Of a stretch of DNA of 31,683 nt, positions 3,347-24,754 are shown one piece after another. Each line of letters begins with the position of its first letter. Within the stretch, counting starts at the first letter, position 1. The notes under the pieces are model-generated. The model searched no databases. It was not told where the DNA came from and was given only the letters and a program-made list of their open reading frames with translations. A program made the translations under genes and the position numbers. The DNA lies in IMG/VR virus record IMGVR_UViG_2711768054_000002. One strand, given 5' to 3'. Source of the DNA: a virus (Duplodnaviria > Heunggongvirae > Uroviricota > Caudoviricetes).

Positions 3347-3618
3347 GTATTCGTATCGAAATTGGCGAACGTTATGTCGTTACCAGTGACAGCTTTCAGT
3401 TTATTCTCCACGAGAAAAAGAGAGCGGAAAGCGGTAAAAACGCCGGTCAGGAATGGCTGGCGGTGGTTGGTTATTACCCGAAATTAAGCCAGCTCGTTTC
3501 CGGCCTGATGCATCACGATATTCTGACCGGAAGCGCAAAGTCTTTTGCTGATTTAAACGCGCAGGTTGAGCAACTCAGCAAGCGTTGTTCTGAGGCTTTT
3601 GGCTCATATGGCCGTTAA
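3343..3618 (+). CDS. Hypothetical early protein (P2 orf83 position)
   Basis: 91-aa ORF, translationally coupled to neighbours. Confidence 0.6.
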   Translation: MSIRIEIGERYVVTSDSFQFILHEKKRAESGKNAGQEWLAVVGYYPKLSQLVSGLMHHDILTGSAKSFADLNAQVEQLSKRCSEAFGSYGR

Positions 3619-5875
3619 AGCCTCCGGGCGTTTTGTCCCTCCGTCAGCATTTGCCGCAGGCACCGGTAAGGCGTTTACCGGTGCTTATGCATGGAACGCG
3701 CCACGCGAGGCTGTCGGGCGCGAAAGACCTCTTACACGTGACGAGATGCGTCAGGTGCAAGGTGTTTTATCCACGATTAATCGCCTGCCTTACTTTTTGC
3801 GCTCGCTGTTTACTTCACGCTATGACTACATCCGGCGCAATAAAAGCCCGGTGCACGGGTTTTATTTCCTCACATCCACTTTTCAGCGTCGTTTATGGCC
3901 GCGCATTGAGCGTGTTAATCAGCGCCATGAAATGAACACCGACGCGTCGTTGCTGTTTCTGGCAGAGCGTGACCACTATGCGCGCCTGCCTGGAATGAAT
4001 GACAAGGAGCTGAAAAAGTTTGCCGCCCGTATCTCATCGCAGCTTTTCATAATGTATGAGGAACTCTGCGATGCCTGGGTGGATGCGCATGGCGAGAAAG
4101 AATCGCTGTTTACGGATGAGGCGCAGGCTCACCTGTATGGTCATGTTGCTGGCGCTGCACGTGCTTTCAATATTTCCCCGCTCTACTGGAAAAAATACCG
4201 TAAAGGGCAGATGACCACGAGGCAGGCATATTCTGCCATTGCCCGTCTGTTTAACGATGAGTGGTGGACTCATCAGCTTAAAGGCCAGCGTATGCGCTGG
4301 CATGAGGCGTTACTGATTGCTGTCGGGGAGGTCAATAAAGACCGTTCTCCTTATGCCAGTAAACATGCCATTCGTGATGTGCGTGCGCGCCGCCAGGCAA
4401 ATCTGGAATTTCTTAAATCGTGTGACCTTGAAAACAAGGAAACCGGCGAGCGCATCGACCTTATCAGTAAGATGATGGGCAGTATTTCTAATCCCGAAAT
4501 TCGCCGGATGGAGCTGATGAACACCATCGCCGGTATTGAGCGTTACGCTGCCGCAGAGGGTGATGTGGGGATGTTTATCACGCTGACCGCGCCGTCAAAG
4601 TATCACCCGACACGTCAGGTCAGAAAAGGCGAAAGTAAAACCGTCCAGCTAAATCACGGCTGGAATGATGAGGCATTTAATCCAAAGGATGCGCAGCGTT
4701 ATCTCTGCCGTATCTGGAGCCTGATGCGCACGGCATTCAAGGATAATGATTTACAGGCCTACGGTTTGCGTGTTGTTGAACCACACCACGACGGAACGCC
4801 GCACTGGCATATGATGCTTTTTTGTAATCCACGCCAGCGTAACCAGATTATTGAAATCATGCGTCGCTATGCGCTCAAAGAGGATGGCGACGAAAGAGGA
4901 GCCGCGCGAAACCGTTTTCAGGCAAAACACCTTAACCGGGGCGGTGCTGCGGGATATATCGCGAAATACATTTCAAAAAATATCGACGGCTATGCACTGG
5001 ATGGTCAGCTCGATAACGATACCGGCAGACCGCTGAAAGATACTGCGGCGGCTGTTACCGCATGGGCGTCAACGTGGCGCATCCCGCAATTTAAAACGGT
5101 TGGCCTGCCGACAATGGGAGCTTACCGTGAGCTACGTAAATTGCCTCGCGGCGTCAGCATTGCTGATGAATTTGACGAACGCGTGGAGGCTGCACGCGCC
5201 GCCGCAGACAGTGGCGATTTTGCGTTGTATATCAGCGCGCAGGGCGGGGCAAATGTCCCGCGCGATTGTCAGACTGTCAGGGTCGCCCGTAGCCCGTCGG
5301 ATGACGTTAACGAATACGAGGAAGAAGTCGAGAGAGTGGTCGGCATTTACGCGCCGCATCTCGGCGCGCGTCATATTCATATCACCAGAACGACGGACTG
5401 GCGCATTGTGCCGAAAGTTCCGGTCGTTGAGCCTTTGACTTTAAAAAGCGGCATCGCCGCGCCTCGGAGTCCTGTCAATAACTGTGGAAAGGTCACCGGT
5501 TGTGATACTTCGTTACCGGCTCCCACACCTTCTGAGCACGCCGCAGCAGTGCTTAATCTGGTTGATGACGGTGTTATCGAATGGAATGACCCGGAGGTTG
5601 TGAGGGCGCTCAGGGGCGCATTAAAACACGGCCTGAGAACGCCAAATCGTCAGCAAAGAAACGGAAGCCCGTTAAAACCACATGAAATTGCACCATCGGC
5701 CAGACTGACCCGGTCGGAAAGAATGCAAATTACCCGTATCCGCGTTGACCTTGCTCAGAACGGTATCAGGCCGCAGCGATGGGAGCTTGAGGCGTTGGCG
5801 CGCGGGGCAACAGTAATTTATGACGGTGAGCGGTTTAGTTATGCTGTAAAAGACGATTGGGTGATGTTTTCTTAA
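3608..5875 (+). CDS. A: Replication initiation endonuclease A (rolling-circle initiator)
   Basis: Track ORF starts at TTG 3566; the ATG at 3608 gives MAVKASGRFVPP, the P2 gpA-like N-terminus; contains HWHMMLF and YIAKYISK motifs of this family. The P2 origin lies inside A; I did not locate it here. Confidence 0.92.
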   Translation: MAVKASGRFVPPSAFAAGTGKAFTGAYAWNAPREAVGRERPLTRDEMRQVQGVLSTINRLPYFLRSLFTSRYDYIRRNKSPVHGFYFLTSTFQRRLWPRIERVNQRHEMNTDASLLFLAERDHYARLPGMNDKELKKFAARISSQLFIMYEELCDAWVDAHGEKESLFTDEAQAHLYGHVAGAARAFNISPLYWKKYRKGQMTTRQAYSAIARLFNDEWWTHQLKGQRMRWHEALLIAVGEVNKDRSPYASKHAIRDVRARRQANLEFLKSCDLENKETGERIDLISKMMGSISNPEIRRMELMNTIAGIERYAAAEGDVGMFITLTAPSKYHPTRQVRKGESKTVQLNHGWNDEAFNPKDAQRYLCRIWSLMRTAFKDNDLQAYGLRVVEPHHDGTPHWHMMLFCNPRQRNQIIEIMRRYALKEDGDERGAARNRFQAKHLNRGGAAGYIAKYISKNIDGYALDGQLDNDTGRPLKDTAAAVTAWASTWRIPQFKTVGLPTMGAYRELRKLPRGVSIADEFDERVEAARAAADSGDFALYISAQGGANVPRDCQTVRVARSPSDDVNEYEEEVERVVGIYAPHLGARHIHITRTTDWRIVPKVPVVEPLTLKSGIAAPRSPVNNCGKVTGCDTSLPAPTPSEHAAAVLNLVDDGVIEWNDPEVVRALRGALKHGLRTPNRQQRNGSPLKPHEIAPSARLTRSERMQITRIRVDLAQNGIRPQRWELEALARGATVIYDGERFSYAVKDDWVMFS

Positions 5876-5958
5876 ACTGATGGCATCATGATACATTAAC
5901 AAATCTGAAGCAATGCTTTAGTAGTCGTGCATTAATAACTTATAAGGAATTATTATCG

Positions 5959-7281
5959 ATGAGTGCGTTAAGGGATGAAGTATCTATGAAGGTTGCGTTC
6001 TCTAATGGCATGATAAACAAATTATGCAAAAGTTTTTTTTATAGTCATGGTAAGGAGCAGCCTTGTATTCAAGTCGGTAAAGCATTAGAAGATTTTGCTT
6101 TTTGGCTTGCATATAATGATGAGGAGATTGCAAAATGTGCTAGTAGGTTATTAAAAGCATATGGCCCCCAATTAGGTATAAGTGACCTTCACAATGCGAA
6201 AAGATTATTGTTAGGTTTTTGTTCTGAAGCCTTCAATCGCATTGATGCTGATTTTCTGTCGCTTAATCCTGATAAGATTTGTGTTGATGATATTATAACG
6301 CAAGTTCATAGAAAAAATCTTAGTGAGATGTTTAAGTATTATATACTTTCACGAATAAAATCCTGTCCGTATATTTATAATCTTGGGTGTGCTGGCTTTG
6401 ATGGGAAGCTTGAGCTTAGAGAAAATTTATTTTTATATGGCCCGGGGCTAGGGGTGGAATTACTTTCTGATATTAAAGACAAAACTGACATCAAGGTTCC
6501 TGTTGATTTTTATGATGATGAATATATGCGGCATAAACCAATTGGGAAATATTTTCGACAGTCAAAATCCTGCTTGGTGGTGGCATATGCTTCATCAGAG
6601 GATAAAGCGGTGAAAATGTTTGATAGTTTGTTTGGAGCTTTATGTCTTGCGGTTGATAATCCTTTTGCGATTAATCGAGTTGCTGTTAATAATCTAGTTG
6701 AGTCTTTTGGTGTCGGGAAATATCATGAAAGTGAGTTTCGGGTGAATATTCCGTCTGTATATAATTTAAATATAACGGATTCAGCCTTGGCGATACTTAC
6801 AAAAATACTTTCATCACCTGATAAAAGGATGTTGTCTGCTCTTTCCTTTATAGCGCACGGGTGGAGGGATGACAAACGTGAAAGGTTTTTGAATCAATTT
6901 ATAGCATTGGATGCTATGTATGGAACCAATAATGGTAATAAAAATTCAATTATTGGCGGTGTTTGCAGAGATGCGGCGAAAATTATTGATATTGATTCAA
7001 AAATAGGAATAATCTATGAGCTTAGGTGTAAGTTTGTTCATGGAGATATTTCATCGTTATCTGATAATGATAGCTATCGAAAGTTTATTGATAGCTATGG
7101 CGTGGACCCTATTGTTTCTCTTTTTGAAATTCTTAAAGAATGCGTCCTTAATTATAATGGTACTTACAAAACGCCAAAAGATGTTGGAAAGGCAGATAGG
7201 TCTATTTGCGTTCCTGCTGAGTTGCTTCCAGCGGTTGAGAGGATGATAGCGGAATACAGTGGAGTTAAAAAAACAAACTAA
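5959..7281 (+). CDS. Hypothetical 440-aa cargo protein in the A-Q variable region; R-x4-H (HEPN-like) motif
   Basis: Clean ATG with AAGGA SD; visibly AT-rich relative to flanking phage genes; occupies the P2 tin/old position; motif ELRCKFVHGD at residues 355-364 (nt 7021-7050); no Walker A motif, so not Old-like. Confidence 0.75.
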   Translation: MSALRDEVSMKVAFSNGMINKLCKSFFYSHGKEQPCIQVGKALEDFAFWLAYNDEEIAKCASRLLKAYGPQLGISDLHNAKRLLLGFCSEAFNRIDADFLSLNPDKICVDDIITQVHRKNLSEMFKYYILSRIKSCPYIYNLGCAGFDGKLELRENLFLYGPGLGVELLSDIKDKTDIKVPVDFYDDEYMRHKPIGKYFRQSKSCLVVAYASSEDKAVKMFDSLFGALCLAVDNPFAINRVAVNNLVESFGVGKYHESEFRVNIPSVYNLNITDSALAILTKILSSPDKRMLSALSFIAHGWRDDKRERFLNQFIALDAMYGTNNGNKNSIIGGVCRDAAKIIDIDSKIGIIYELRCKFVHGDISSLSDNDSYRKFIDSYGVDPIVSLFEILKECVLNYNGTYKTPKDVGKADRSICVPAELLPAVERMIAEYSGVKKTN

Positions 7282-7422
7282 AGATGTTCTTTTTAGCCTC
7301 GCCTGCATTAGGTGCATAAATTTGCATTCATTTTCAAATATATCTTTTGACAGCGAGCACCAGAACAGGCGCTTGCCGGGGGGATGATGCACCTGCATTA
7401 AAACCGCCCCATGAAGCGGGCG

Positions 7423-7441
7423 GGCGAGGCGGGGAAAGCAC
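7423..7441. other. cos cohesive-end site
   Basis: Exact GGCGAGGCGGGGAAAGCAC, the P2 19-nt cohesive end as I recall it, in the expected position between the A side and Q. Confidence 0.85.
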
Positions 7442-7685
7442 TGCGCGCAATTGTTCATTTTGTCATATATGTAATTTGATTTGAGTAACTATCCGCATAT
7501 TGTTAACCAAGTGTATAACTGCGATAAAAATGTGTCTATTAGGTTGTATTGACTTGATTTAATATAAGAGAATGGTTAGATTCGTACACGTGGCATTTGG
7601 TTGTGCAATCGTGTTGTTGCACGCTAAATAATAACCTTGTGTTCTTTTTATTTAATTTGCTGGTTAAGTTTTTATAGGAAATAAA

Positions 7686-8687
7686 ATGAGTATTATAATT
7701 GATGAGTCAAATGAAAAAAATAATGGGGTTAATAGTGGGTTACCTGCTTCTCGGGATATTAATACTAGCATTCGTATTTATCAGCAAATTTATCAACATA
7801 TAACGGGAACAACAGAAACAATAAGGCAGAGAACCTCTGAGAATTTACTTATAAATATCGATGAGATAAGAAGCGTTCATCAAAAAATAAATCAATTGTG
7901 TGATGTTCATAATATTATATCGAAAAATGAAACGGTAACTATTTTACATTCAAAAGATAGAAAGGAACAGTTTACCTCTTTTGATAAGTTTGCAATGTCG
8001 AGTAGTGCGGGAAGTAGTCCAACAATTAGTGTAATTTTAAAATATAACTTTGCAATTTTATCGACAGGGGCATCATTACCTAACCACTATGAAGTTACTG
8101 TTAAATTAGCATCAAGAATTGCTATGCAGAAAGAAATGGAAGAAGATGCGCCACCTTTCATTAGGGGGCGTTTTGTTGCATTCATGCTCACCAGTTCAGC
8201 AGAAATAGTTGTTGAATATGCTGATTATGTAGTGGCTAGAGGTTTTATCGAAGCATTTAAAGAATGGGTTGAAGGATGTCAAAGAGTTACAAACAAAATA
8301 CCATTGATACAGCAAGCTCAAAGGATATCGTATTTAATTCCACTGATTATGCGGTTTTCTTTTTCTATATTGATTTTAAGTTATGCACTGTACAATGTTG
8401 GTGAATATATTGATATTGGTGATAAAGAAAGGTTAGTAAAATTTTTAATGCTCTTTCTTGGTGCGTTTTCTATTATCCCATTGTTAGCGGAGCATTTAGG
8501 TGAAGGCCTAGAGAGATTAATTGATGGTTATACTCCAGCATCGTACATTGTATTAAATAAGGGTGATGAGAGGTTGTATGATGAATATAGTAAGAAGCGA
8601 AAGAAGAGTATTTTAAGAGTGGTGTTAAATATAGTTTCAACAGTTGTTCTAGGTATTGTTTCAGCTAGGCTGGACAAATTATTATAA
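7686..8687 (+). CDS. Hypothetical 333-aa membrane cargo protein between cos and Q
   Basis: ATG with AGGA SD; very AT-rich (about 32% GC on one line counted by hand); soluble N-terminal domain, then three hydrophobic segments (ISYLIPLIMRFSFSILILSYALY, LVKFLMLFLGAFSIIPLL, ILRVVLNIVSTVVLGIVSA). Confidence 0.75.
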   Translation: MSIIIDESNEKNNGVNSGLPASRDINTSIRIYQQIYQHITGTTETIRQRTSENLLINIDEIRSVHQKINQLCDVHNIISKNETVTILHSKDRKEQFTSFDKFAMSSSAGSSPTISVILKYNFAILSTGASLPNHYEVTVKLASRIAMQKEMEEDAPPFIRGRFVAFMLTSSAEIVVEYADYVVARGFIEAFKEWVEGCQRVTNKIPLIQQAQRISYLIPLIMRFSFSILILSYALYNVGEYIDIGDKERLVKFLMLFLGAFSIIPLLAEHLGEGLERLIDGYTPASYIVLNKGDERLYDEYSKKRKKSILRVVLNIVSTVVLGIVSARLDKLL

Positions 8688-8850
8688 CTGGAGTTGGCCA
8701 CATTTTATGTGGCCAACGTAACGGCGTGGTAGTGACAGTTTTTTTGCGTCTGAGCGCGTCGTGATGGCATTTAGTCGGCCTGCCGGGGCGTTGGTGTGTC
8801 TGCGGGGTGTTTTGTGCGGTGGTGAGCGTGTGAGGCCGTGATGACGGGTT

Positions 8851-8874
8851 GTAAAAAAGCCGCCCGCAGGCGGC
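8851..8874 (-). terminator. Rho-independent terminator downstream of Q
   Basis: GCCGCC-CGCA-GGCGGC hairpin (8859-8874) followed on the minus strand by a U6 tract (complement of AAAAAA 8853-8858), just past the Q stop. Confidence 0.7.
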
Positions 8875-8879
8875 GATGT

Positions 8880-9914
8880 TCAGCCGTTGTCAGTGTCCAG
8901 TGAGTAGTTTTTAAAGCGGATGACCTCCTGACCGAGCCAGCCGTTTATCTCGCGGATCCTGTCCTGTAGCGGAATAAGCTCATTGCGGACAAAGACCTTT
9001 GCCACTTTCTCAATATCACCCAGCGACCCGACGTTCTCCGGCTTGCCGCCCATCAACTGAAAGGGGATGCGGTGCGCATCCAGCAGGTCAGCGGCGCTGG
9101 CTTTTTTGATATTAAAAAAATCGTCCTTCGTTGCCACTTCACTGAGCGGGATAATTTTAATGCCGTCGGCTTTCCCCTGTGGGGCATAGAGAAACAGATT
9201 TTTAAAGTTGTTGCGGCCTTTCGACTTAACCATGTTTTCGCGAAGCATTTCGATATCGTTGCGATCCTGCACGGCATCGGTGACGTACATGATGTATCCA
9301 GCATGTGCGCCGTTTTCGTAATACTTGCGGCGGAACAGCGTGGCCGATTCATTCAGCCAGGCAGAGTTAAGGGCGCTGAGATATTCCGGCAGGCCGTACA
9401 GCTCCTGATTAATATCCGGCTCCAGCAGGTGAAACACGGAGCCGGGCGCGAAAGGTGTCGGCTCGTTGAAGGACGGCACCCACCAGTAAACATCCTCCTC
9501 AACACCACGGCGGGTATATTTTGCCGGTGAGGTTTCCAGTCTGATGACCTTACCGGTGGTGCTGTAGCGCTTTTCCAGAAACGCATTACCGAACACCAGA
9601 AAATCCAGCACAAAGCGGCTGAAATCCTGCTGGGAAAGCCACGGATGCGGGATAAATGTCGAGGCCAGAATATTGCGTTTAACGTAAATCGGTGAGCTGT
9701 GATGCACGGTAGCACGCAGGCTTTTTGCCAGACCGGTAAAGCTGATTGGTGGCTCATACCATCTGCCGTTACTGATGCATTCGACGTAATCCAGAATGTC
9801 ACGGCGGTCGAGTACCGGCACCGGCTCACCAAAGGTGAATGCCTCCATTTTCGGGGCGCTGGCGGTCATTTTTTTTGCCGCAGGTTGCGGTGTTTTCCCT
9901 TTTTTCTTGCTCAT
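8880..9914 (-). CDS. Q: Portal protein Q
   Basis: 344 aa, matching P2 gpQ in length and position; start overlaps the P stop. Confidence 0.93.
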   Translation of the reverse strand: MSKKKGKTPQPAAKKMTASAPKMEAFTFGEPVPVLDRRDILDYVECISNGRWYEPPISFTGLAKSLRATVHHSSPIYVKRNILASTFIPHPWLSQQDFSRFVLDFLVFGNAFLEKRYSTTGKVIRLETSPAKYTRRGVEEDVYWWVPSFNEPTPFAPGSVFHLLEPDINQELYGLPEYLSALNSAWLNESATLFRRKYYENGAHAGYIMYVTDAVQDRNDIEMLRENMVKSKGRNNFKNLFLYAPQGKADGIKIIPLSEVATKDDFFNIKKASAADLLDAHRIPFQLMGGKPENVGSLGDIEKVAKVFVRNELIPLQDRIREINGWLGQEVIRFKNYSLDTDNG

Positions 9915-11686
9915 CAGTAAAACTCCAGAATGGTGGATGTCAGCGGGGTGCTGATACCGGCGGTGAGTGGCTCATTTAACAGGGCGTGCATGGTCGCCCA
10001 GGCGAGGTCGGCGTGGCTGGCTTCCTCGCTGCGGCTGGCCTCATAGGTGGCGCTGCGTCCGCTGCTGGTCATGGTCTTGCGGATAGCCATAAACGAGCTG
10101 GTGATGTCGGTGGCGCTGACGTCATATTCCAGACAGCCACGGCGGATAACGTCTTTTGCCTTGAGCACCATTGCGGTTTTCATTTCTGGCGTGTAGCGGA
10201 TGTCGCGTGCGGCGGGATAGAACGAGCGCACGAGCTGGAACACGCCGACACCGAGGCCGGTGGCATCAATACCGATGTATTCGACGTTGTATTTTTCGGT
10301 GAGTTTGCGGATGGATTCAGCCTGGGTGGCAAAGTCCATGCCTTTCCACTGGTGACGCTCAAGTATTCTGAATTTGCCACCGGCCACCACCGGCGGTGCC
10401 AGCACCACGCATCCGGCGCTGTCGCCACGGTGTGACGGGTCGTAACCAATCCATACCGGGCGGGAGCCGAACGGATTGGCGGCAAACGGCGCATAGTCTT
10501 CCCATTCTTCCAGCGTGTCGACCATACAGCGTTGCAGCTCCTCGAACGGGAACACCGACGCCTTGTCGTCAACAAATTCACACATGAACAGGTTTTTAAA
10601 ATCGTCGGCGCTGTTTTCGCGTTTGAGCTGCTCAATGTCGAACAGCGTGCAGCCGCCTTTCAGGGCGTCCTCAATGGTGACAATCTGCCGCCACTGGCCG
10701 TCCGCACAGAGAAGCCCACCGGCAAGGGCGTTATGACTGACGTCGATTTCCACGCGTTCGGCGGCGCTGGCGCGTCCCCGGTTGAACAGTTCACCCGACC
10801 AGAACGGGTAGGCGTCGTGCGCCAGCGTGGACGGGGTGGAGAAATAGGTCGATCGCAGGTGACTCTGTGAGGCCATACCTGATGCCACCTTACGCAGCAC
10901 CTGAAAATTCGGGATCCAGAAAATCTCGTCGACGTACAGGTCGCCGTTATGGCTCTGCGCGGTGTTGGAGTTGGTGCCGAGAAAAATCAGTTTTGCGCCG
11001 TTATTGCCCAGGACAATCGGGTCACCGGTCAGGTCAACATCAACCAGACGGGCAAAGGCGATGATGTATTCACGGAACACATACGCCTGCGTTTTACTGG
11101 CCGACAGAAAAATCTGGTTATGACCGGTTTTCAGGGCGCGCAGCAGCGCCTCGCGGGAAAAATAAAACGTCGCGCCAATCTGGCGGGATTTCAGGATATC
11201 GCGGATGCGGTGCTCAAGCCCGGCGCGATACCAGTGCAACTGATAATCGAAAGACTGCTCAAAGAAAATCTGCTCCAGCTTTTCGATGGCCTCGTCACTG
11301 AAAAAATTCTTTTTCGGTTTGCGCCGCCCGCCTTTGTTGCGGTTAGCGACGTTCGGATTAAGGTCTGCCTCGTTGCCGGTCTGGCTGTAGCGGTTTACCC
11401 GTGCCAGTCGTTCAATCTGGCGTCCCAGCAGGTCAATTTCCTTGAAATCACCGCCGGTTTTCTGCGGTTTGATGATGAGCTGGGTCAGCCGCGCTTCCAG
11501 ACTCATTTCGACACGGCTGATGGGGGCAACGCTGTCCCAGCCGTCGCGCTGTTTCCAGCTCTGCACCGTCGGGCGTTTCATCTGCAACATGGCGGCAATC
11601 TGCGGCACGGAAAATCCCTGCCAGTACAGCAGCGCCGCCTGACGACGCGGGTCGTGTAAAAGAGTGGTGTCTGTGGTGATGGTCAT
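9914..11686 (-). CDS. P: Terminase large subunit P (ATPase/nuclease)
   Basis: Track ORF trimmed to the ATG at 11686 (MTITTDTT...), preceded by GAGGT SD; about 590 aa as in P2 gpP. Confidence 0.92.
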   Translation of the reverse strand: MTITTDTTLLHDPRRQAALLYWQGFSVPQIAAMLQMKRPTVQSWKQRDGWDSVAPISRVEMSLEARLTQLIIKPQKTGGDFKEIDLLGRQIERLARVNRYSQTGNEADLNPNVANRNKGGRRKPKKNFFSDEAIEKLEQIFFEQSFDYQLHWYRAGLEHRIRDILKSRQIGATFYFSREALLRALKTGHNQIFLSASKTQAYVFREYIIAFARLVDVDLTGDPIVLGNNGAKLIFLGTNSNTAQSHNGDLYVDEIFWIPNFQVLRKVASGMASQSHLRSTYFSTPSTLAHDAYPFWSGELFNRGRASAAERVEIDVSHNALAGGLLCADGQWRQIVTIEDALKGGCTLFDIEQLKRENSADDFKNLFMCEFVDDKASVFPFEELQRCMVDTLEEWEDYAPFAANPFGSRPVWIGYDPSHRGDSAGCVVLAPPVVAGGKFRILERHQWKGMDFATQAESIRKLTEKYNVEYIGIDATGLGVGVFQLVRSFYPAARDIRYTPEMKTAMVLKAKDVIRRGCLEYDVSATDITSSFMAIRKTMTSSGRSATYEASRSEEASHADLAWATMHALLNEPLTAGISTPLTSTILEFY

Positions 11687-11859
11687 GAATACCTCGCCGT
11701 GATGAATACACGGCAAGGCTACTGAGTCGCGCCCTGCGATTCGCTAAGGTGCTGTTGTGTCAGTGATAAGCCATCCGGGACTGATGGCGGAGGATGCGCA
11801 TCGTCGGGAAACTGATGCCGACATGTGACTCCTCTAATCACTATTCAGGACTCCTGACA
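11687..11859. promoter_or_regulatory. Divergent late promoter region between P and O (expected Ogr-dependent)
   Basis: By synteny with P2; I looked for an exact TGT-N12-ACA dyad and found none, so exact sites are unassigned. Confidence 0.45.
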
Positions 11860-12714
11860 ATGGCAAAAAAAGTCTCAAAATTCTTTCGTATCGGCGTTGA
11901 GGGTGACACCTGTGACGGGCGTGTCATCAGTGCGCAGGATATTCAGGAAATGGCCGAAACCTTTGACCCGCGTGTCTATGGTTGCCGTATTAACCTGGAA
12001 CATCTGCGCGGCATCCTGCCTGACGGTATTTTTAAACGTTATGGTGATGTGGCCGAACTGAAGGCCGAAAAGATTGACGATGATTCGGCGCTGAAAGGCA
12101 AATGGGCGCTGTTTGCGAAAATCACCCCGACCGATGACCTTATCGCGATGAACAAGGCCGCGCAGAAGGTCTACACCTCAATGGAAATTCAGCCGAACTT
12201 TGCCAACACCGGCAAATGTTATCTGGTGGGGCTGGCCGTCACCGATGACCCGGCAAGCCTCGGTACGGAATACCTGGAATTCTGCCGCACGGCAAAACAC
12301 AACCCCCTGAACCGCTTCAAATTAAGCCCTGAGAACCTTATTTCAGTGGCAACGCCCGTTGAGCTGGAATTTGAAGACCTGCCTGAAACCGTGTTCACCG
12401 CCCTGACCGAAAAGGTGAAATCCATTTTTGGCCGCAAACAGGCCAGCGATGACGCCCGTCTGAATGACGTGCATGAAGCGGTGACCGCTGTTGCTGAACA
12501 TGTGCAGGAAAAACTGAGCGCCACTGAGCAGCGCCTCGCTGAGATGGAAACCGCCTTTTCCGCACTTAAGCAGGAGGTGACTGACAGGGCGGATGAAACC
12601 AGCCAGGCATTCACCCGCCTGAAAAACAGTCTCGACAACACCGAAAGTCTGACCCAGCAGCGCCGCAGCAAGGCCACCGGTGGTGGCGGTGACGCCCTGA
12701 TGACGAACTGCTGA
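11860..12714 (+). CDS. O: Capsid scaffolding protein O
   Basis: ATG at 11860 (MAKKVSKFFRIGVEGDTCDGR, P2 gpO-like N-terminus); 284 aa. Confidence 0.92.
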   Translation: MAKKVSKFFRIGVEGDTCDGRVISAQDIQEMAETFDPRVYGCRINLEHLRGILPDGIFKRYGDVAELKAEKIDDDSALKGKWALFAKITPTDDLIAMNKAAQKVYTSMEIQPNFANTGKCYLVGLAVTDDPASLGTEYLEFCRTAKHNPLNRFKLSPENLISVATPVELEFEDLPETVFTALTEKVKSIFGRKQASDDARLNDVHEAVTAVAEHVQEKLSATEQRLAEMETAFSALKQEVTDRADETSQAFTRLKNSLDNTESLTQQRRSKATGGGGDALMTNC

Positions 12715-12772
12715 CCGGCGTCAGTCAGTCCGGGAAAACCTTCACGATTAACCCTTAATTTCAGGAAAAACT

Positions 12773-13846
12773 ATGCGCCAGGAAACCCGCTTTAAATTTA
12801 ATGCCTACCTGTCCCGTGTTGCCGAACTGAACGGCATCGACGCCGGTGATGTGTCGAAAAAATTCACCGTTGAACCGTCGGTCACTCAGACCCTGATGAA
12901 CACCATGCAGGAGTCCTCTGATTTTCTGACCCGCATCAACATTGTGCCGGTCAGCGAAATGAAAGGGGAAAAAATTGGTATTGGTGTCACCGGCTCCATC
13001 GCCAGCACCACCGACACCGCCGGTGGCACCGAGCGTCAGCCGAAGGACTTCTCGAAGCTGGCGTCAAACAAGTACGAATGCGACCAGATTAACTTCGATT
13101 TTTATATCCGCTACAAAACGCTGGACCTGTGGGCGCGTTATCAGGATTTCCAGCTCCGTATCCGTAACGCCATTATCAAACGCCAGTCCCTTGATTTCAT
13201 CATGGCCGGTTTTAACGGCGTGAAGCGTGCCGAAACCTCTGACCGCAGCAGTAATCCGATGCTGCAGGATGTGGCGGTCGGCTGGCTGCAGAAATACCGC
13301 AATGAAGCACCGGCGCGCGTGATGAGCAAGGTCACTGACGAGGAAGGGCACACCACATCTGAGGTCATCCGCGTGGGTAAGGGCGGTGATTATGCCAGCC
13401 TTGACGCACTGGTGATGGATGCGACCAACAACCTGATTGAGCCGTGGTATCAGGAAGACCCTGACCTTGTGGTGATTGTGGGGCGTCAGCTACTGGCGGA
13501 CAAGTATTTCCCCATCGTTAACAAGGAGCAGGACAACAGCGAAATGCTGGCCGCTGACGTCATCATCAGCCAGAAACGCATCGGCAACCTGCCAGCGGTA
13601 CGCGTCCCGTACTTCCCGGCGGATGCGATGCTCATCACGAAGCTGGAAAACCTGTCCATCTACTACATGGATGACAGCCATCGCCGCGTGATTGAGGAAA
13701 ACCCGAAACTCGACCGCGTGGAGAACTACGAGTCAATGAACATTGATTACGTGGTGGAAGACTACGCCGCCGGTTGCCTGGTGGAAAAAATTAAGGTCGG
13801 TGATTTCTCCACACCGGCTAAGGCGACCGCAGAGCCGGGAGCGTAA
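12773..13846 (+). CDS. N: Major capsid protein N
   Basis: 357 aa, identical in length to P2 gpN; follows O. Confidence 0.94.
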   Translation: MRQETRFKFNAYLSRVAELNGIDAGDVSKKFTVEPSVTQTLMNTMQESSDFLTRINIVPVSEMKGEKIGIGVTGSIASTTDTAGGTERQPKDFSKLASNKYECDQINFDFYIRYKTLDLWARYQDFQLRIRNAIIKRQSLDFIMAGFNGVKRAETSDRSSNPMLQDVAVGWLQKYRNEAPARVMSKVTDEEGHTTSEVIRVGKGGDYASLDALVMDATNNLIEPWYQEDPDLVVIVGRQLLADKYFPIVNKEQDNSEMLAADVIISQKRIGNLPAVRVPYFPADAMLITKLENLSIYYMDDSHRRVIEENPKLDRVENYESMNIDYVVEDYAAGCLVEKIKVGDFSTPAKATAEPGA

Positions 13847-23368: not shown

Positions 23369-24754
23369 ATGGATAGTGTCAGTAGTGTTGAGCGTTTAAG
23401 AACAAAAGCTTTTTATCAGTTGCTTGTGGATAGGCTTGGAACTGAGGCCTGGGCTGCTCGCAAAGCTGCATATTTCAAGCGCATAAGAGAGAAGGAGGCT
23501 AAGTTTAACATCAATCTGCCGATAGAGCCCCAGCTCTTCATACCAGCAGAAGATGACATCGACTGGTACATTCTGGCGTCGTATCTGTCTCATGATTTTC
23601 CATATAGTGATGCTACTTACAGCAGCAGACGTATCTACCCCTATGCTATGGCCATCGGAGCTGTTGCAGACCAGCTTCGCAAAGTCCCATACGTCGATGA
23701 TGTTCTGGACAAAATGCTAGCAAATAACAATAAACCAGAAACTCAAATTTTTGAGCTGCTGACGGCATCGTTCTACCTAAAGAACGGCTATGAGGTTGCC
23801 TTCATCCCAGAAAGCAGCATTGTTTGGCCCGATGGAAAGACCAAAAAATCACCGGATATGCTTGTCAAGTTAGGTGATCTGGAGTTCTACGTCGAGTGCA
23901 AAAGGTCGGATAAGCAAACCAAGTACTCAAAGACAGAAGAGCAAGCCTGGGCCAACATCTGGCATCAATTGAGCCAACATATGCTCAAAGTCGCACCATG
24001 GAACATTGTCGATATAATTTTCCATGAGCAGGTCGCCAGTGTGACTCCGGCAGACGTTATTAAAGCGGTGAATCTAGCCATTAAAGGGGGGACGGGAAAA
24101 GCTAATGAAGGTTCAATCAGTGTGGGAATACGAGCCATCGACAAATTAGGTCTCAGACGTCACTACAGAAAATTTTCAGTCAGAGCCAATAGCCCACAGC
24201 ATGAATTGCTGGTATTTGGGGATCTAGATAGCAATGAGAAACGAAGTATCTCGACTATCGCTCAGAGAGTTATTCGTCCTGGCACCAATAACGATATTCT
24301 CAACATTTTTGTAGAGGATGTTGCAAAGTGCGTTGGAGCTCAGTGGCGCTGCGATCATGAGATTTCTCTTGGCCTCAGATCCAAGCATTTCAAGAGCTTG
24401 CTCAATGATGGAGTCATGCAGATTCCCCCTGATCGTGCTGGCGTGGTGCATATTTGGTATGAGACTTGCGAAGGCATAGATATTGAAGAACTACGTAGGG
24501 ATAAAAACATGGAGCATATCTCGGCCTACGATGCCTCTAAAACAACTGTGTTGGGTGCTTTCCTGCATGCCGTTAATTATTACCCATTAGAGGACAACTA
24601 TGAGTGGGCTGAGACTGTTCAAGACTTTGCCCGTGTCCCGGATTTGATGGGGCTCTTCCTTAGACAGCCATTGATGCTTACATCTGACTCGACGCGTGGG
24701 GTCGAAGGTGTCACACATTGGGAGCAAGATAAGGCCGCAAAAAGCATGCGTTGA
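23369..24754 (+). CDS. Hypothetical 461-aa cargo protein in the Z/fun position; PD-x(n)-E-x-K nuclease-like motif
   Basis: Lies between G and FI where P2 carries Z/fun; lower GC than the tail genes; motif SPD(163)MLVKLGDLE(172)FYVE(176)CK(178) at nt 23849-23902. Confidence 0.75.
   Translation: MDSVSSVERLRTKAFYQLLVDRLGTEAWAARKAAYFKRIREKEAKFNINLPIEPQLFIPAEDDIDWYILASYLSHDFPYSDATYSSRRIYPYAMAIGAVADQLRKVPYVDDVLDKMLANNNKPETQIFELLTASFYLKNGYEVAFIPESSIVWPDGKTKKSPDMLVKLGDLEFYVECKRSDKQTKYSKTEEQAWANIWHQLSQHMLKVAPWNIVDIIFHEQVASVTPADVIKAVNLAIKGGTGKANEGSISVGIRAIDKLGLRRHYRKFSVRANSPQHELLVFGDLDSNEKRSISTIAQRVIRPGTNNDILNIFVEDVAKCVGAQWRCDHEISLGLRSKHFKSLLNDGVMQIPPDRAGVVHIWYETCEGIDIEELRRDKNMEHISAYDASKTTVLGAFLHAVNYYPLEDNYEWAETVQDFARVPDLMGLFLRQPLMLTSDSTRGVEGVTHWEQDKAAKSMR

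What the first reader, a model, noticed from the sequence alone, without database searches (positions are those of the whole stretch)
7442..8879. Extra membrane-protein gene inserted between cos and the portal gene
As I recall P2, Q ends within a couple of hundred bp of cos. Here about 1.4 kb separates cos (7423..7441) from the Q terminator, filled by a very AT-rich 333-aa gene (7686..8687). The protein has a roughly 200-aa soluble N-terminal domain and about three C-terminal transmembrane helices, an architecture typical of membrane-acting abortive-infection effectors and superinfection-exclusion proteins. In the virion this gene would sit at the extreme left end of the genome. I do not recognise the protein.
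Basis: partly seen in the sequence, partly recalled or inferred. Interest (0 to 1): 0.8.

Follow-up and report, generated by a model that had tools for sequence, protein, structure and literature searches.

The report
Unnamed membrane gene beside P2 cos
A P2-like prophage carries a rare, foreign 333-residue inner-membrane protein gene between its DNA-packaging site and its portal gene; this is a known landing spot for anti-phage cargo, and the protein belongs to a large unnamed family whose function has never been tested.

Summary
An exact P2 cos (7423-7441) is followed by about 1.27 kb of 30-35% GC DNA. It holds one 333-aa ORF (7686-8687) and then the usual ~150-bp spacer and Q terminator. 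In complete E. coli genomes, 1523 have the uninterrupted 188-bp cos-to-Q arrangement and only 10 carry this insert.

The protein has a ~180-aa cytoplasmic alpha+beta domain of generic TBP/AdoMetDC-like fold, three conserved hydrophobic helices, and a conserved cytoplasmic loop (SYxxLNxGD). It matches nothing in Pfam, PADLOC, NCBIfam or PHROGs, no solved structure and no deposited phage genome. It nonetheless belongs to a family of about 1000 clusters at 50% identity, nearly all ~330 aa.

It is independent of the 440-aa neighbour: the same gene sits beside at least six different cargoes on the A side of cos. Homologues at 41-55% identity lie between cos and the portal gene in Klebsiella, Serratia, Pantoea and Yersinia peduovirus prophages. 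Elsewhere the gene is solitary with no conserved partner.

The position is a published hotspot (Rousset 2022; Dodd and Egan 1996; Nakayama 1999). My best reading is a stand-alone, membrane-acting anti-phage gene that senses in the cytoplasm. This is inferred, not shown. It is a new member of a known kind, of moderate interest.

The parts
7423..7441 (+). P2-type cos, the 19-nt cohesive-end sequence
   Evidence: Exact match to GGCGAGGCGGGGAAAGCAC. It is unique in the window, with 0 matches expected from shuffles.
7442..7448 (+). Conserved cos+7 junction (TGCGCGC); the cargo starts immediately after it
   Evidence: Homology to the fiAA91-ss left end stops here. The same junction, cos + TGCGCG(C/T), precedes the homologue in Klebsiella, Serratia, Pantoea and Enterobacter loci.
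7449..8721 (+). Inserted low-GC cassette of about 1.27 kb (leader, ORF, 3' hairpin)
   Evidence: Absent from fiAA91-ss. The cos-to-Q site is uninterrupted in 1523 E. coli genomes. GC is 0.30-0.39. The whole interval is present at 99.2-99.8% identity in 10 genomes. The right-hand boundary is approximate (8722-8738).
7449..7685 (+). AT-rich leader, presumed to hold the gene's own promoter and ribosome-binding site (AGGA, 8-11 nt before the ATG)
   Evidence: Read from the sequence. The consensus scan found no convincing promoter: 4 sites against 5.8 expected. The promoter is therefore inferred. No Rfam family matches.
7686..8687 (+). 333-aa ORF: a membrane protein of an unnamed family
   Evidence: ORF listing. 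There are 197 homologues in the word-indexed search and 1007 clusters at E<=1e-3 in the exhaustive search. All homologues start at the same Met, and 34 columns are invariant.
7755..8300 (+). Cytoplasmic alpha+beta domain (residues 24-205), the most conserved part of the protein
8322..8399 (+). Transmembrane helix 1 (about residues 213-238)
   Evidence: Kyte-Doolittle 19-residue window reaches 1.6-1.9. The segment is hydrophobic across the family and helical in the AF2 model.
8433..8501 (+). Transmembrane helix 2 (about residues 250-272). The loop before it (239-249) is short, poorly conserved and nearly free of K/R, so it is presumed periplasmic.
   Evidence: loop K+R mean 0.3, conservation 0.32.
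8502..8600 (+). Conserved cytoplasmic loop (residues 273-305) with E276, D280 and the S286-Y287-x2-L290-N291-x-G293-D294 motif, followed by a K/R-rich stretch
   Evidence: Invariant columns in the 34-sequence alignment. K+R mean 5.4 and conservation 0.64.
8601..8675 (+). Transmembrane helix 3 (about residues 306-330)
   Evidence: Kyte-Doolittle window reaches 2.2. The segment is conserved across the family.
8693..8717 (+). Perfect 11-bp hairpin, 5 nt after the stop codon; probably the cassette's terminator or an mRNA stabiliser
   Evidence: Read from the sequence. Fold of 8680-8760: -28.9 kcal/mol, z = -2.9. No U-tract follows directly, so a terminator function is inferred. Other lineages have a hairpin at the same place, between the gene and Q.
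8739..8879 (.). Native P2 spacer between cos and Q, including the Q terminator (8859-8874, - strand)
   Evidence: This is the only part of the interval matched, at 90-96% identity, in about 1520 E. coli genomes and 70 phage records. Terminator scan.
8880..9914 (-). Portal gene Q, convergent with the inserted gene
   Evidence: ORF listing. 98-99% identical to annotated portal proteins.
5959..7281 (+). 440-aa low-GC gene on the A side of cos: a separate hotspot cargo, not a partner of the 333-aa gene
   Evidence: Full-length match to phrog_23812. RefSeq calls it a 'HEPN domain-containing protein', and it is present in 46 genomes. Of the 10 genomes with the 333-aa gene, seven were read directly: only X14-3 has this neighbour, and the other six have different or no A-side cargo. 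The three other ETEC strains were not inspected.

Best explanation
The interval holds a moron-type cassette (leader, one gene, 3' hairpin) inserted 7 nt beyond cos on the portal side of a P2-like prophage.

Shown:
- The gene encodes a single-gene, self-contained inner-membrane protein.
- Its N-terminal ~180-aa alpha+beta domain and the conserved loop between TM2 and TM3 face the cytoplasm. Three helices span the membrane, and almost nothing is exposed to the periplasm.

Inferred:
- It is expressed from the prophage and acts as a stand-alone anti-phage, abortive-infection-type protein.
- The conserved cytoplasmic domain detects a signal of infection: a phage product, or more likely a conserved small molecule or host component.
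- Through the conserved loop, that signal switches the three-helix membrane part, probably as an oligomer, into a state that damages membrane integrity or energetics.
- The competing phage is stopped at the cost of the infected cell.

The gene works alone and not with the 440-aa neighbour. It moves as an independent module.
For: Position and mobility:
- The gene lies inside the experimentally supported gpA-gpQ defence hotspot of P2-like phages. [quoted passage not shown] The cosL-to-Q position has been called a pick-up site for foreign genes (PMC5694545).
- It is a rare accessory cassette with low GC.
- It is independent of its neighbours: the same gene, at >=99% identity, sits beside HEPN, AAA_13, DUF7380, RT, DUF3850 or DUF2158 cargoes, or beside none.
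- In Klebsiella and Serratia prophages it is the only sizeable cargo in the whole A-Q interval.

Family and context:
- The architecture is uniform: about 1000 clusters, nearly all ~330 aa.
- No family is shared by more than 3 of 120 neighbouring proteins across 16 non-phage loci, so there is no conserved partner.
- Some neighbourhoods are defence-like: PIN, Fic, NERD, BrnT and an HsdM fragment; CHAT, HNH and DUF2326 beside cI/cro in a Shewanella prophage-like element; TIR/SEFIR; DRT, GajB-like and SoFic hits.

Protein:
- Three hydrophobic helices are conserved and the positive-inside rule fits an N-in topology.
- Conservation is concentrated in the cytoplasmic domain (0.71) and cytoplasmic loop (0.64), against 0.32 for the periplasmic loop.
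Against: - No experiment exists, and there is no homology to any known defence protein (PADLOC) or any Pfam, NCBIfam or PHROG family.
- The strong conservation of the soluble domain, about 40% identity from beta- to gamma-proteobacteria, is unusual for a sensor of fast-evolving phage proteins. It could instead indicate an enzyme or a housekeeping-like membrane function.
- Many non-phage neighbourhoods are ordinary housekeeping genes such as RNR, tRNA synthetase and AcrB, so the defence-island signal is only moderate.
- None of 50,697 deposited phage genomes encodes a homologue.
- One of the ten E. coli copies is disrupted by IS1.
- The promoter is not identified.
Confidence: 0.42

Rival explanations
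1. It is a superinfection-exclusion protein. It sits in the inner membrane and blocks DNA entry of incoming phages without killing the cell, as P22 SieA, T4 Imm or HK97 gp15 do.
For: It is a prophage-encoded inner-membrane protein at a moron position. It is a single gene with no partner.
Against: The only periplasm-facing part is a loop of about 11 residues, which is the least conserved region (0.32), plus a short C-terminal tail. All conserved mass is cytoplasmic. Homologues are common as solitary chromosomal genes in bacteria with no P2-like prophage nearby. There is no sequence similarity to any known Sie protein in PHROGs or Pfam.
Confidence: 0.12
2. It is a lysogenic-conversion or fitness gene unrelated to phage defence. 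It would be a membrane-anchored enzyme or a small-molecule or lipid-binding protein that changes envelope physiology, carried as a passenger in a permissive slot.
For: The soluble domain is very strongly conserved, with many invariant polar residues: Y32, Q33, E44, K67, R92, K93, D180, R185 and W194. The folds it resembles bind ligands, lipids or act as enzymes: AdoMetDC, Bet v 1/START, KA1. Many non-phage neighbourhoods are housekeeping. The same slot carries non-defence morons in other P2-like phages, such as a Vgr-like ORF in phiRSY1 (PMC5694545); from my memory, the ctx cytotoxin gene in phiCTX is another.
Against: The distribution is patchy and islet-like, the GC is low, and there is no conserved operon partner or pathway context. 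Homologues recur in prophage cargo slots of two different phage types.
Confidence: 0.2
3. It is a two-gene system with the 440-aa HEPN-annotated neighbour, split by cos. The 440-aa protein would be the sensor or nuclease and the 333-aa protein the membrane effector. This follows the first reader's suggestion to test the two together.
For: In the prophage the two low-GC genes are adjacent and co-oriented, 5959-7281 and 7686-8687. The same pair occurs in E. coli X14-3.
Against: Of the 10 genomes with the 333-aa gene, seven were read directly. Only X14-3 has the 440-aa gene; the other six carry different A-side cargo or none, and the three further ETEC strains were not inspected. The 440-aa gene is in 46 genomes, mostly with the empty cos-to-Q site; for example, CM2010-0578/1 appears in both. 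Homologues in other genera have no such neighbour.
Confidence: 0.03

Closest known systems
Cargo of the cos-proximal gpA-gpQ hotspot of P2-like phages (old, tin, retrons and others; Rousset et al. 2022, PMC9122126), and the cosL-to-Q 'foreign gene' site noted for 186-related prophages, phiCTX and phiRSY1 (PMC5694545)
   Same: It lies between gpA and gpQ next to cos. It has low GC and varies between otherwise near-identical prophages. The protein (WP_053285577, one residue different from the window's) is already listed as 'hypothetical' in Rousset's raw locus table.
   Different: It lies on the portal side of cos, which is empty in about 98% of E. coli P2-type loci. It is too rare in E. coli (10 of 5426 complete genomes) to be a likely candidate for Rousset's curation, which required arrangements seen at least 10 times, and no paper in the searched library cites its accessions. 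It has no recognised defence domain.
Single-protein, membrane-anchored abortive-infection proteins of prophages (for example PdpSau of S. aureus prophages, PMC10127798), and transmembrane effectors of Abi systems in general (RexB; the TM effectors of CBASS, Pycsar and retrons)
   Same: It is prophage-encoded. It combines a membrane anchor with a cytoplasmic domain. It has no enzymatic domain recognisable by sequence. A membrane-damage mode of action is plausible.
   Different: There is no sequence or significant structural similarity to any of them. The TM effectors of signalling systems need a partner synthase, whereas this gene has no conserved partner. No activity has been tested.
Inner-membrane superinfection-exclusion proteins (P22 SieA, T4 Imm, HK97 gp15)
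   Same: It is an accessory inner-membrane protein encoded by a temperate phage.
   Different: It is much larger, with a conserved cytoplasmic domain of about 180 aa, and has almost no conserved periplasmic surface. There is no homology.
TBP-like / AdoMetDC-like / Bet v 1-like alpha+beta folds (spermine synthase N-terminal domain 3c6k, AdoMetDC 2iii, the KA1 domain, RnlA N-terminal domains)
   Different: Identity is 3-12%, there is no sequence-level relationship, and no catalytic motif was identified. The resemblance is at fold level only.

Membership tests
P2-like gpA-gpQ (cos-proximal) defence hotspot cargo | Located between the replication gene A and the portal gene Q of a P2-like prophage, adjacent to cos | tested here: met
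   A is at 3566-5875, cos at 7423-7441, the gene at 7686-8687 and Q at 8880-9914. The hotspot definition is from PMC9122126.
P2-like gpA-gpQ (cos-proximal) defence hotspot cargo | Variable presence among closely related prophages | tested here: met
   10 E. coli genomes carry it, against 1523 with the empty site. It is absent from all 70 matching phage records.
P2-like gpA-gpQ (cos-proximal) defence hotspot cargo | Confers resistance to phage infection | not testable with these tools
   This needs plaque assays. No publication mentions the protein accessions.
Known anti-phage defence protein families (PADLOC-DB 2.0) | Significant HMM match to a defence-system model | tested here: not met
   No family at E<=1 for the window protein. 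Across 34 family members there are only scattered chance-level hits.
Membrane-acting abortive-infection effector | Integral membrane protein with transmembrane helices | tested here: met
   Three Kyte-Doolittle segments of at least 1.6, conserved in the family and consistent with the positive-inside rule. AF2 predicts long helices at 206-243, 247-280 and 292-327. No dedicated TM predictor was available.
Membrane-acting abortive-infection effector | Infection-triggered membrane depolarisation or cell death | not testable with these tools
   Experimental only.
Superinfection-exclusion inner-membrane proteins | Blocks DNA entry, which implies a functional surface facing the periplasm or the incoming ejection machinery | tested here: inconclusive
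   The periplasmic loop is about 11 residues long and is the least conserved region, at 0.32. This argues against the family but does not exclude it.
Moron (autonomous accessory cassette in a phage genome) | Composition differs from the backbone; own promoter and terminator; located between two conserved phage features | tested here: inconclusive
   The GC contrast is met. The clean junctions at cos+7 and the native spacer are met. A 3' hairpin is present but lacks a U-tract. The promoter was not identified above background.
AdoMetDC / pyruvoyl-enzyme-like or TBP-like fold proteins | Fold similarity plus the family's sequence or catalytic signature | tested here: inconclusive

The most novel reading that the evidence does not exclude
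The family would be a new, widespread single-gene immune module (about 1000 clusters at 50% identity, with no name in any library). A conserved TBP/AdoMetDC-like cytoplasmic domain would sense a conserved infection cue and gate a three-helix membrane effector. Its repeated anchoring exactly 7 nt beyond cos on the portal side, in E. coli, Klebsiella, Serratia, Pantoea, Enterobacter and (inverted) Yersinia elements, would not be accidental. It would reflect a functional or transmission link to the genome end: for example, spread by cos-associated recombination, or expression from the terminal segment of the incoming or packaged DNA.
Probability: 0.1. Interest if true: 0.7.

Novelty: new member of a known kind. 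Interest (0 to 1): 0.45.

Why it matters
If the gene is active, it adds a new single-gene defence family with a fold not yet linked to immunity. The family is present in roughly a thousand sequence clusters across gamma- and beta-proteobacteria and is missed by Pfam, PADLOC, NCBIfam and PHROGs.

It also splits the published P2 'gpA-gpQ hotspot' into two independently assorting slots on either side of cos. The A side is frequently occupied. The portal side is empty in about 98% of E. coli P2-type loci, but this one family uses it repeatedly in several genera.

The cassette is small (1.3 kb) and self-contained, so a plaque-assay test is cheap.

Tried and rejected
- Family assignment by sequence. 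Pfam, PADLOC, PHROGs and NCBIfam gave nothing for the window protein. Scanning 34 family members against Pfam and PADLOC gave nothing consistent. A profile search against PDB sequences gave 0 hits at E<=10.
- Foldseek against AFDB50 was not available. Foldseek against viral structures (BFVD) gave no hit at E<=0.001.
- tblastn against 50,697 phage genomes gave no match. Against plasmids it gave one distant hit, on a prophage-like Shewanella contig.
- Two-gene system with the 440-aa neighbour: rejected on the co-occurrence data.
- Conserved partner gene. None was found among 120 neighbouring proteins in 16 non-phage loci.
- Fusion variants. The only longer family member in the list (P0215, 548 aa) has no Pfam domain in its extension.
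- Non-coding RNA in the leader: no Rfam match of note.
- Promoter consensus scan: not above background.
- Which end of P2 DNA is packaged or injected first. A literature search gave nothing usable, so no argument is built on entry order.
- The genome-contig scan returned only 14 loci, because only two peptide patterns were used. The context statistics are therefore a small sample.
Full report
**1. What is in the sequence**

The window is a complete P2-like prophage: integrase at the left end, gene A at 3566-5875, and the late genes from Q at 8880 onward.

- The 19-nt P2 cos sequence occurs once, exactly, at 7423-7441.
- A 333-codon ORF runs 7686-8687 on the + strand, convergent with the portal gene Q (8880-9914, - strand).
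- Q has a terminator-like hairpin at 8874-8859.
- GC falls to 0.30-0.35 over 7400-8600, against 0.50-0.59 in A and in Q/P.
- In phage fiAA91-ss, cosL is annotated at 1-19 and the Q stop at 189.
- Aligned to that left end, homology runs through cos plus 7 nt (window 7448) and resumes at about 8722-8738.

The extra DNA is therefore about 1.27 kb. It consists of a 237-nt AT-rich leader, the ORF, and a perfect 11-bp hairpin at 8693-8717.

**2. How unusual the insertion is**

- Against 5,426 complete E. coli genomes, the whole interval 7442-8879 is present in 10 genomes at 99.2-99.8% identity. About 1,520 further genomes match only its last 141 nt, which is the native cos-to-Q spacer.
- The uninterrupted 188-bp cos-to-Q arrangement of fiAA91-ss is present in 1,523 of 1,552 matching genomes.
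- No deposited phage genome has the insert or encodes any homologue (tblastn).

The portal side of cos is thus empty in roughly 98% of E. coli P2-type loci. This gene is a rare occupant of it.

**3. It is independent of the neighbouring 440-aa gene**

The 440-aa low-GC gene on the A side of cos (5959-7281) matches phrog_23812 full-length, and RefSeq labels it 'HEPN domain-containing'. It occurs in 46 genomes.

I read seven of the ten genomes that carry the 333-aa gene directly. Their A-side cargo is:

| Strain | A-side cargo |
|---|---|
| X14-3 | the 440-aa HEPN-annotated gene |
| STN0717-20 | AAA_13 ATPase |
| CFSAN061761 | DUF7380 protein |
| ETEC1730 | nothing annotated |
| H9 | DUF2158 plus hypotheticals; the 333-aa gene itself is split by IS1 |
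| HKUOPY1 | reverse transcriptase |
| MS 16-3 | DUF3850 plus hypotheticals |

The three other ETEC strains were not inspected.

Rousset et al.'s raw locus table lists the protein (WP_053285577) as 'hypothetical' next to DUF4238 and other partners. The two sides of cos therefore assort independently, and the 333-aa gene is a stand-alone module.

**4. The protein**

*Sequence-level searches.*
- No Pfam, PADLOC, PHROG or NCBIfam family matches the window protein.
- Nothing consistent appears when 34 family members are scanned.
- A profile of the family finds no PDB chain at E<=10.
- The protein is nonetheless clearly real and conserved. There are 197 hits in the word-indexed search and 1,007 clusters at 50% identity with E<=1e-3 in the exhaustive search (282 at E<=1e-30). 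Nearly all are ~330 aa and match end to end.
- Hosts named in the records are gamma- and beta-proteobacteria: Pantoea, Erwinia, Enterobacter, Cronobacter, Serratia, Yersinia, Klebsiella, Plesiomonas, Shewanella, Marinobacter, Methylobacter, Limnohabitans, Acidovorax, Nitrosomonas, Accumulibacter, Zoogloea and Thauera.

*Membrane segments and topology.*
- A 34-sequence alignment has 34 invariant columns.
- Hydropathy gives three membrane-spanning segments, at residues about 213-238, 250-272 and 306-330. They are conserved across the family.
- K+R counts are 3.4 before TM1, 0.3 in the 11-residue loop between TM1 and TM2, and 5.4 in the loop between TM2 and TM3.
- This fits an N-in topology. The loop at 273-305, with invariant E276, D280 and S286-Y287-x2-L290-N291-x-G293-D294, faces the cytoplasm.
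- Mean column conservation is 0.71 for the N-terminal domain, 0.64 for the cytoplasmic loop, 0.45-0.52 for the helices and 0.32 for the periplasmic loop.

*Structure prediction.*
- AlphaFold2 gives pLDDT 76 for the whole protein and 79 for residues 23-206 alone.
- This is a common alpha+beta two-layer fold used for ligand, lipid or protein binding. It does not identify a function.
- BFVD gives nothing significant. AFDB50 could not be searched.

**5. Where the relatives sit**

In the Enterobacterales loci I examined, the family is tied to the same slot.

- A cos sequence lies directly upstream of the homologue, and the portal gene is convergent just downstream, in a Klebsiella pneumoniae 186-like prophage (41% identity) and a Serratia marcescens prophage (44%).
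- The same holds in two Pantoea prophage remnants, at 53-56% identity.
- In Enterobacter mori only cos and the gene remain, without phage genes.
- In all of these the cargo begins right after cos + TGCGCG(C/T), the same junction as in the window.
- In Yersinia enterocolitica the homologue (45%) also lies between Q and cos. There it is inverted and sits beside an AAA_15/AAA_21 ATPase.
- In Klebsiella and Serratia it is the only sizeable cargo in the entire A-Q interval.

Outside Enterobacterales the picture is different.

- Fourteen loci from the species-representative genome scan, plus Limnohabitans and Shewanella loci, have no P2-like genes.
- Among 120 neighbouring proteins from 16 such loci, no family recurs in more than 3.
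- Some neighbourhoods are defence-like: PIN, Fic, NERD, BrnT and an HsdM fragment; TIR/SEFIR; DRT, GajB-like and SoFic hits.
- Others are plain housekeeping.
- A 28%-identical relative lies beside CHAT, HNH and DUF2326 genes next to cI/cro in a lambdoid prophage-like Shewanella replicon.

**6. Interpretation**

Shown:
- It is a rare, foreign, self-contained one-gene cassette at cos+7.
- It encodes an inner-membrane protein whose conserved parts are cytoplasmic.
- It has no partner gene.
- It recurs in phage cargo slots.

Inferred:
- It is an anti-phage gene of the abortive-infection, membrane-effector type. The cytoplasmic domain would act as sensor, and the conserved loop would couple it to the three-helix membrane part.

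Support for the inference comes from the hotspot's record. More than a third of systems cloned from the P4 and P2 hotspots were active (PMC9122126). In the P4 hotspot, 6 of 8 randomly chosen unknown-function loci were protective (bioRxiv 10.64898/2026.02.27.708500). The same preprint's machine-learning predictions flag only 15-32% of P2 unknown proteins.

The minimal, variable periplasmic exposure argues against a classical injection-blocking exclusion protein. The unusually strong conservation of the soluble domain keeps open a non-defence membrane enzyme or ligand-binding role. I put the defence/Abi reading at about 0.4, exclusion at about 0.1, another fitness function at about 0.2, and pairing with the 440-aa gene at about 0.03.

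**7. Comparison with what is known, and novelty**

- The location is known. Rousset et al. (2022) defined the P2 hotspot as everything between gpA and gpQ.
[quoted passage not shown] 1999) pointed to the cosL-to-Q position as a place where P2-like phages pick up foreign genes.
- The protein itself is in Rousset's raw table as 'hypothetical'. No paper in the searched library mentions its accessions.
- New here:
  - the family is delineated as large, unnamed and of single architecture;
  - a topology and fold assignment is given;
  - the gene is shown to be independent of A-side cargo;
  - the normally empty portal-side slot is seen to be used repeatedly by this one family across genera.
- This makes it a new member of a known kind (candidate hotspot cargo), not a new kind of system.

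**8. Limits**

- No dedicated TM predictor, multimer prediction or AFDB search was available.
- Context sampling outside E. coli is small: about 25 loci.
- The promoter is not identified.
- All functional statements are inference.

Noticed in passing
window 5959-7281 (+): A 440-aa low-GC gene sits on the A side of cos. It matches phrog_23812 full-length, and RefSeq labels it 'HEPN domain-containing protein', but it has no Pfam or PADLOC hit here. It is present in 46 complete E. coli genomes, mostly with an empty cos-to-Q site. It is a separate uncharacterised hotspot cargo.
   Followed up: partly
window 23369-24754 (+): A 461-aa ORF in a lower-GC stretch (about 0.45) lies between the tail-fibre genes and the tail sheath gene, which is the P2 Z/fun position and the second classical P2 cargo slot. 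Its only hit is a weak, sub-threshold one to the AHJR-like restriction endonuclease fold (E 0.0065).
   Followed up: partly
L014 (E. coli H9, NZ_CP195976.1) 5245-7020: In one of the ten E. coli copies, an IS1A insertion splits the 333-aa gene after residue ~262, before TM3. The gene can therefore be lost without loss of the prophage backbone.
   Followed up: no
L033 (Enterobacter mori) 5900-7005: A cos sequence with one mismatch and the homologue survive together with no recognisable P2 genes on either side. A TIR/SEFIR protein lies about 3.6 kb downstream. This looks like a prophage remnant that kept only cos plus this gene.
   Followed up: partly
L005-L008 (Yersinia enterocolitica) 5728-9595: Two genes lie between the portal gene and cos: a 606-aa AAA_15/AAA_21 ATPase and the family homologue, divergently oriented. 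The portal-side slot can therefore hold more than one cargo. Whether these two cooperate was not examined.
   Followed up: no
L003 (E. coli ETEC1730) 4993-5981: About 1 kb between gene A and cos has no annotated gene, although this slot usually holds cargo. It may be a pseudogene or an uncalled ORF.
   Followed up: no
L037 (Shewanella putrefaciens 'plasmid' CP080634.1) 8983-13830: A 28%-identical family member is followed by CHAT-domain, HNH and DUF2326 genes, next to cI/cro-like regulators and replication protein P. The 43-kb 'plasmid' looks like a lambdoid prophage or phage-plasmid with a defence-type moron cluster.
   Followed up: partly
window 8693-8717: A perfect 11-bp palindrome (GTTGGCCACAT TTT ATGTGGCCAAC) lies 5 nt after the stop codon. 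Each other lineage has a different hairpin at the equivalent place between the gene and the portal stop. The cargo alleles therefore bring or keep a hairpin that insulates them from convergent Q transcription.
   Followed up: partly
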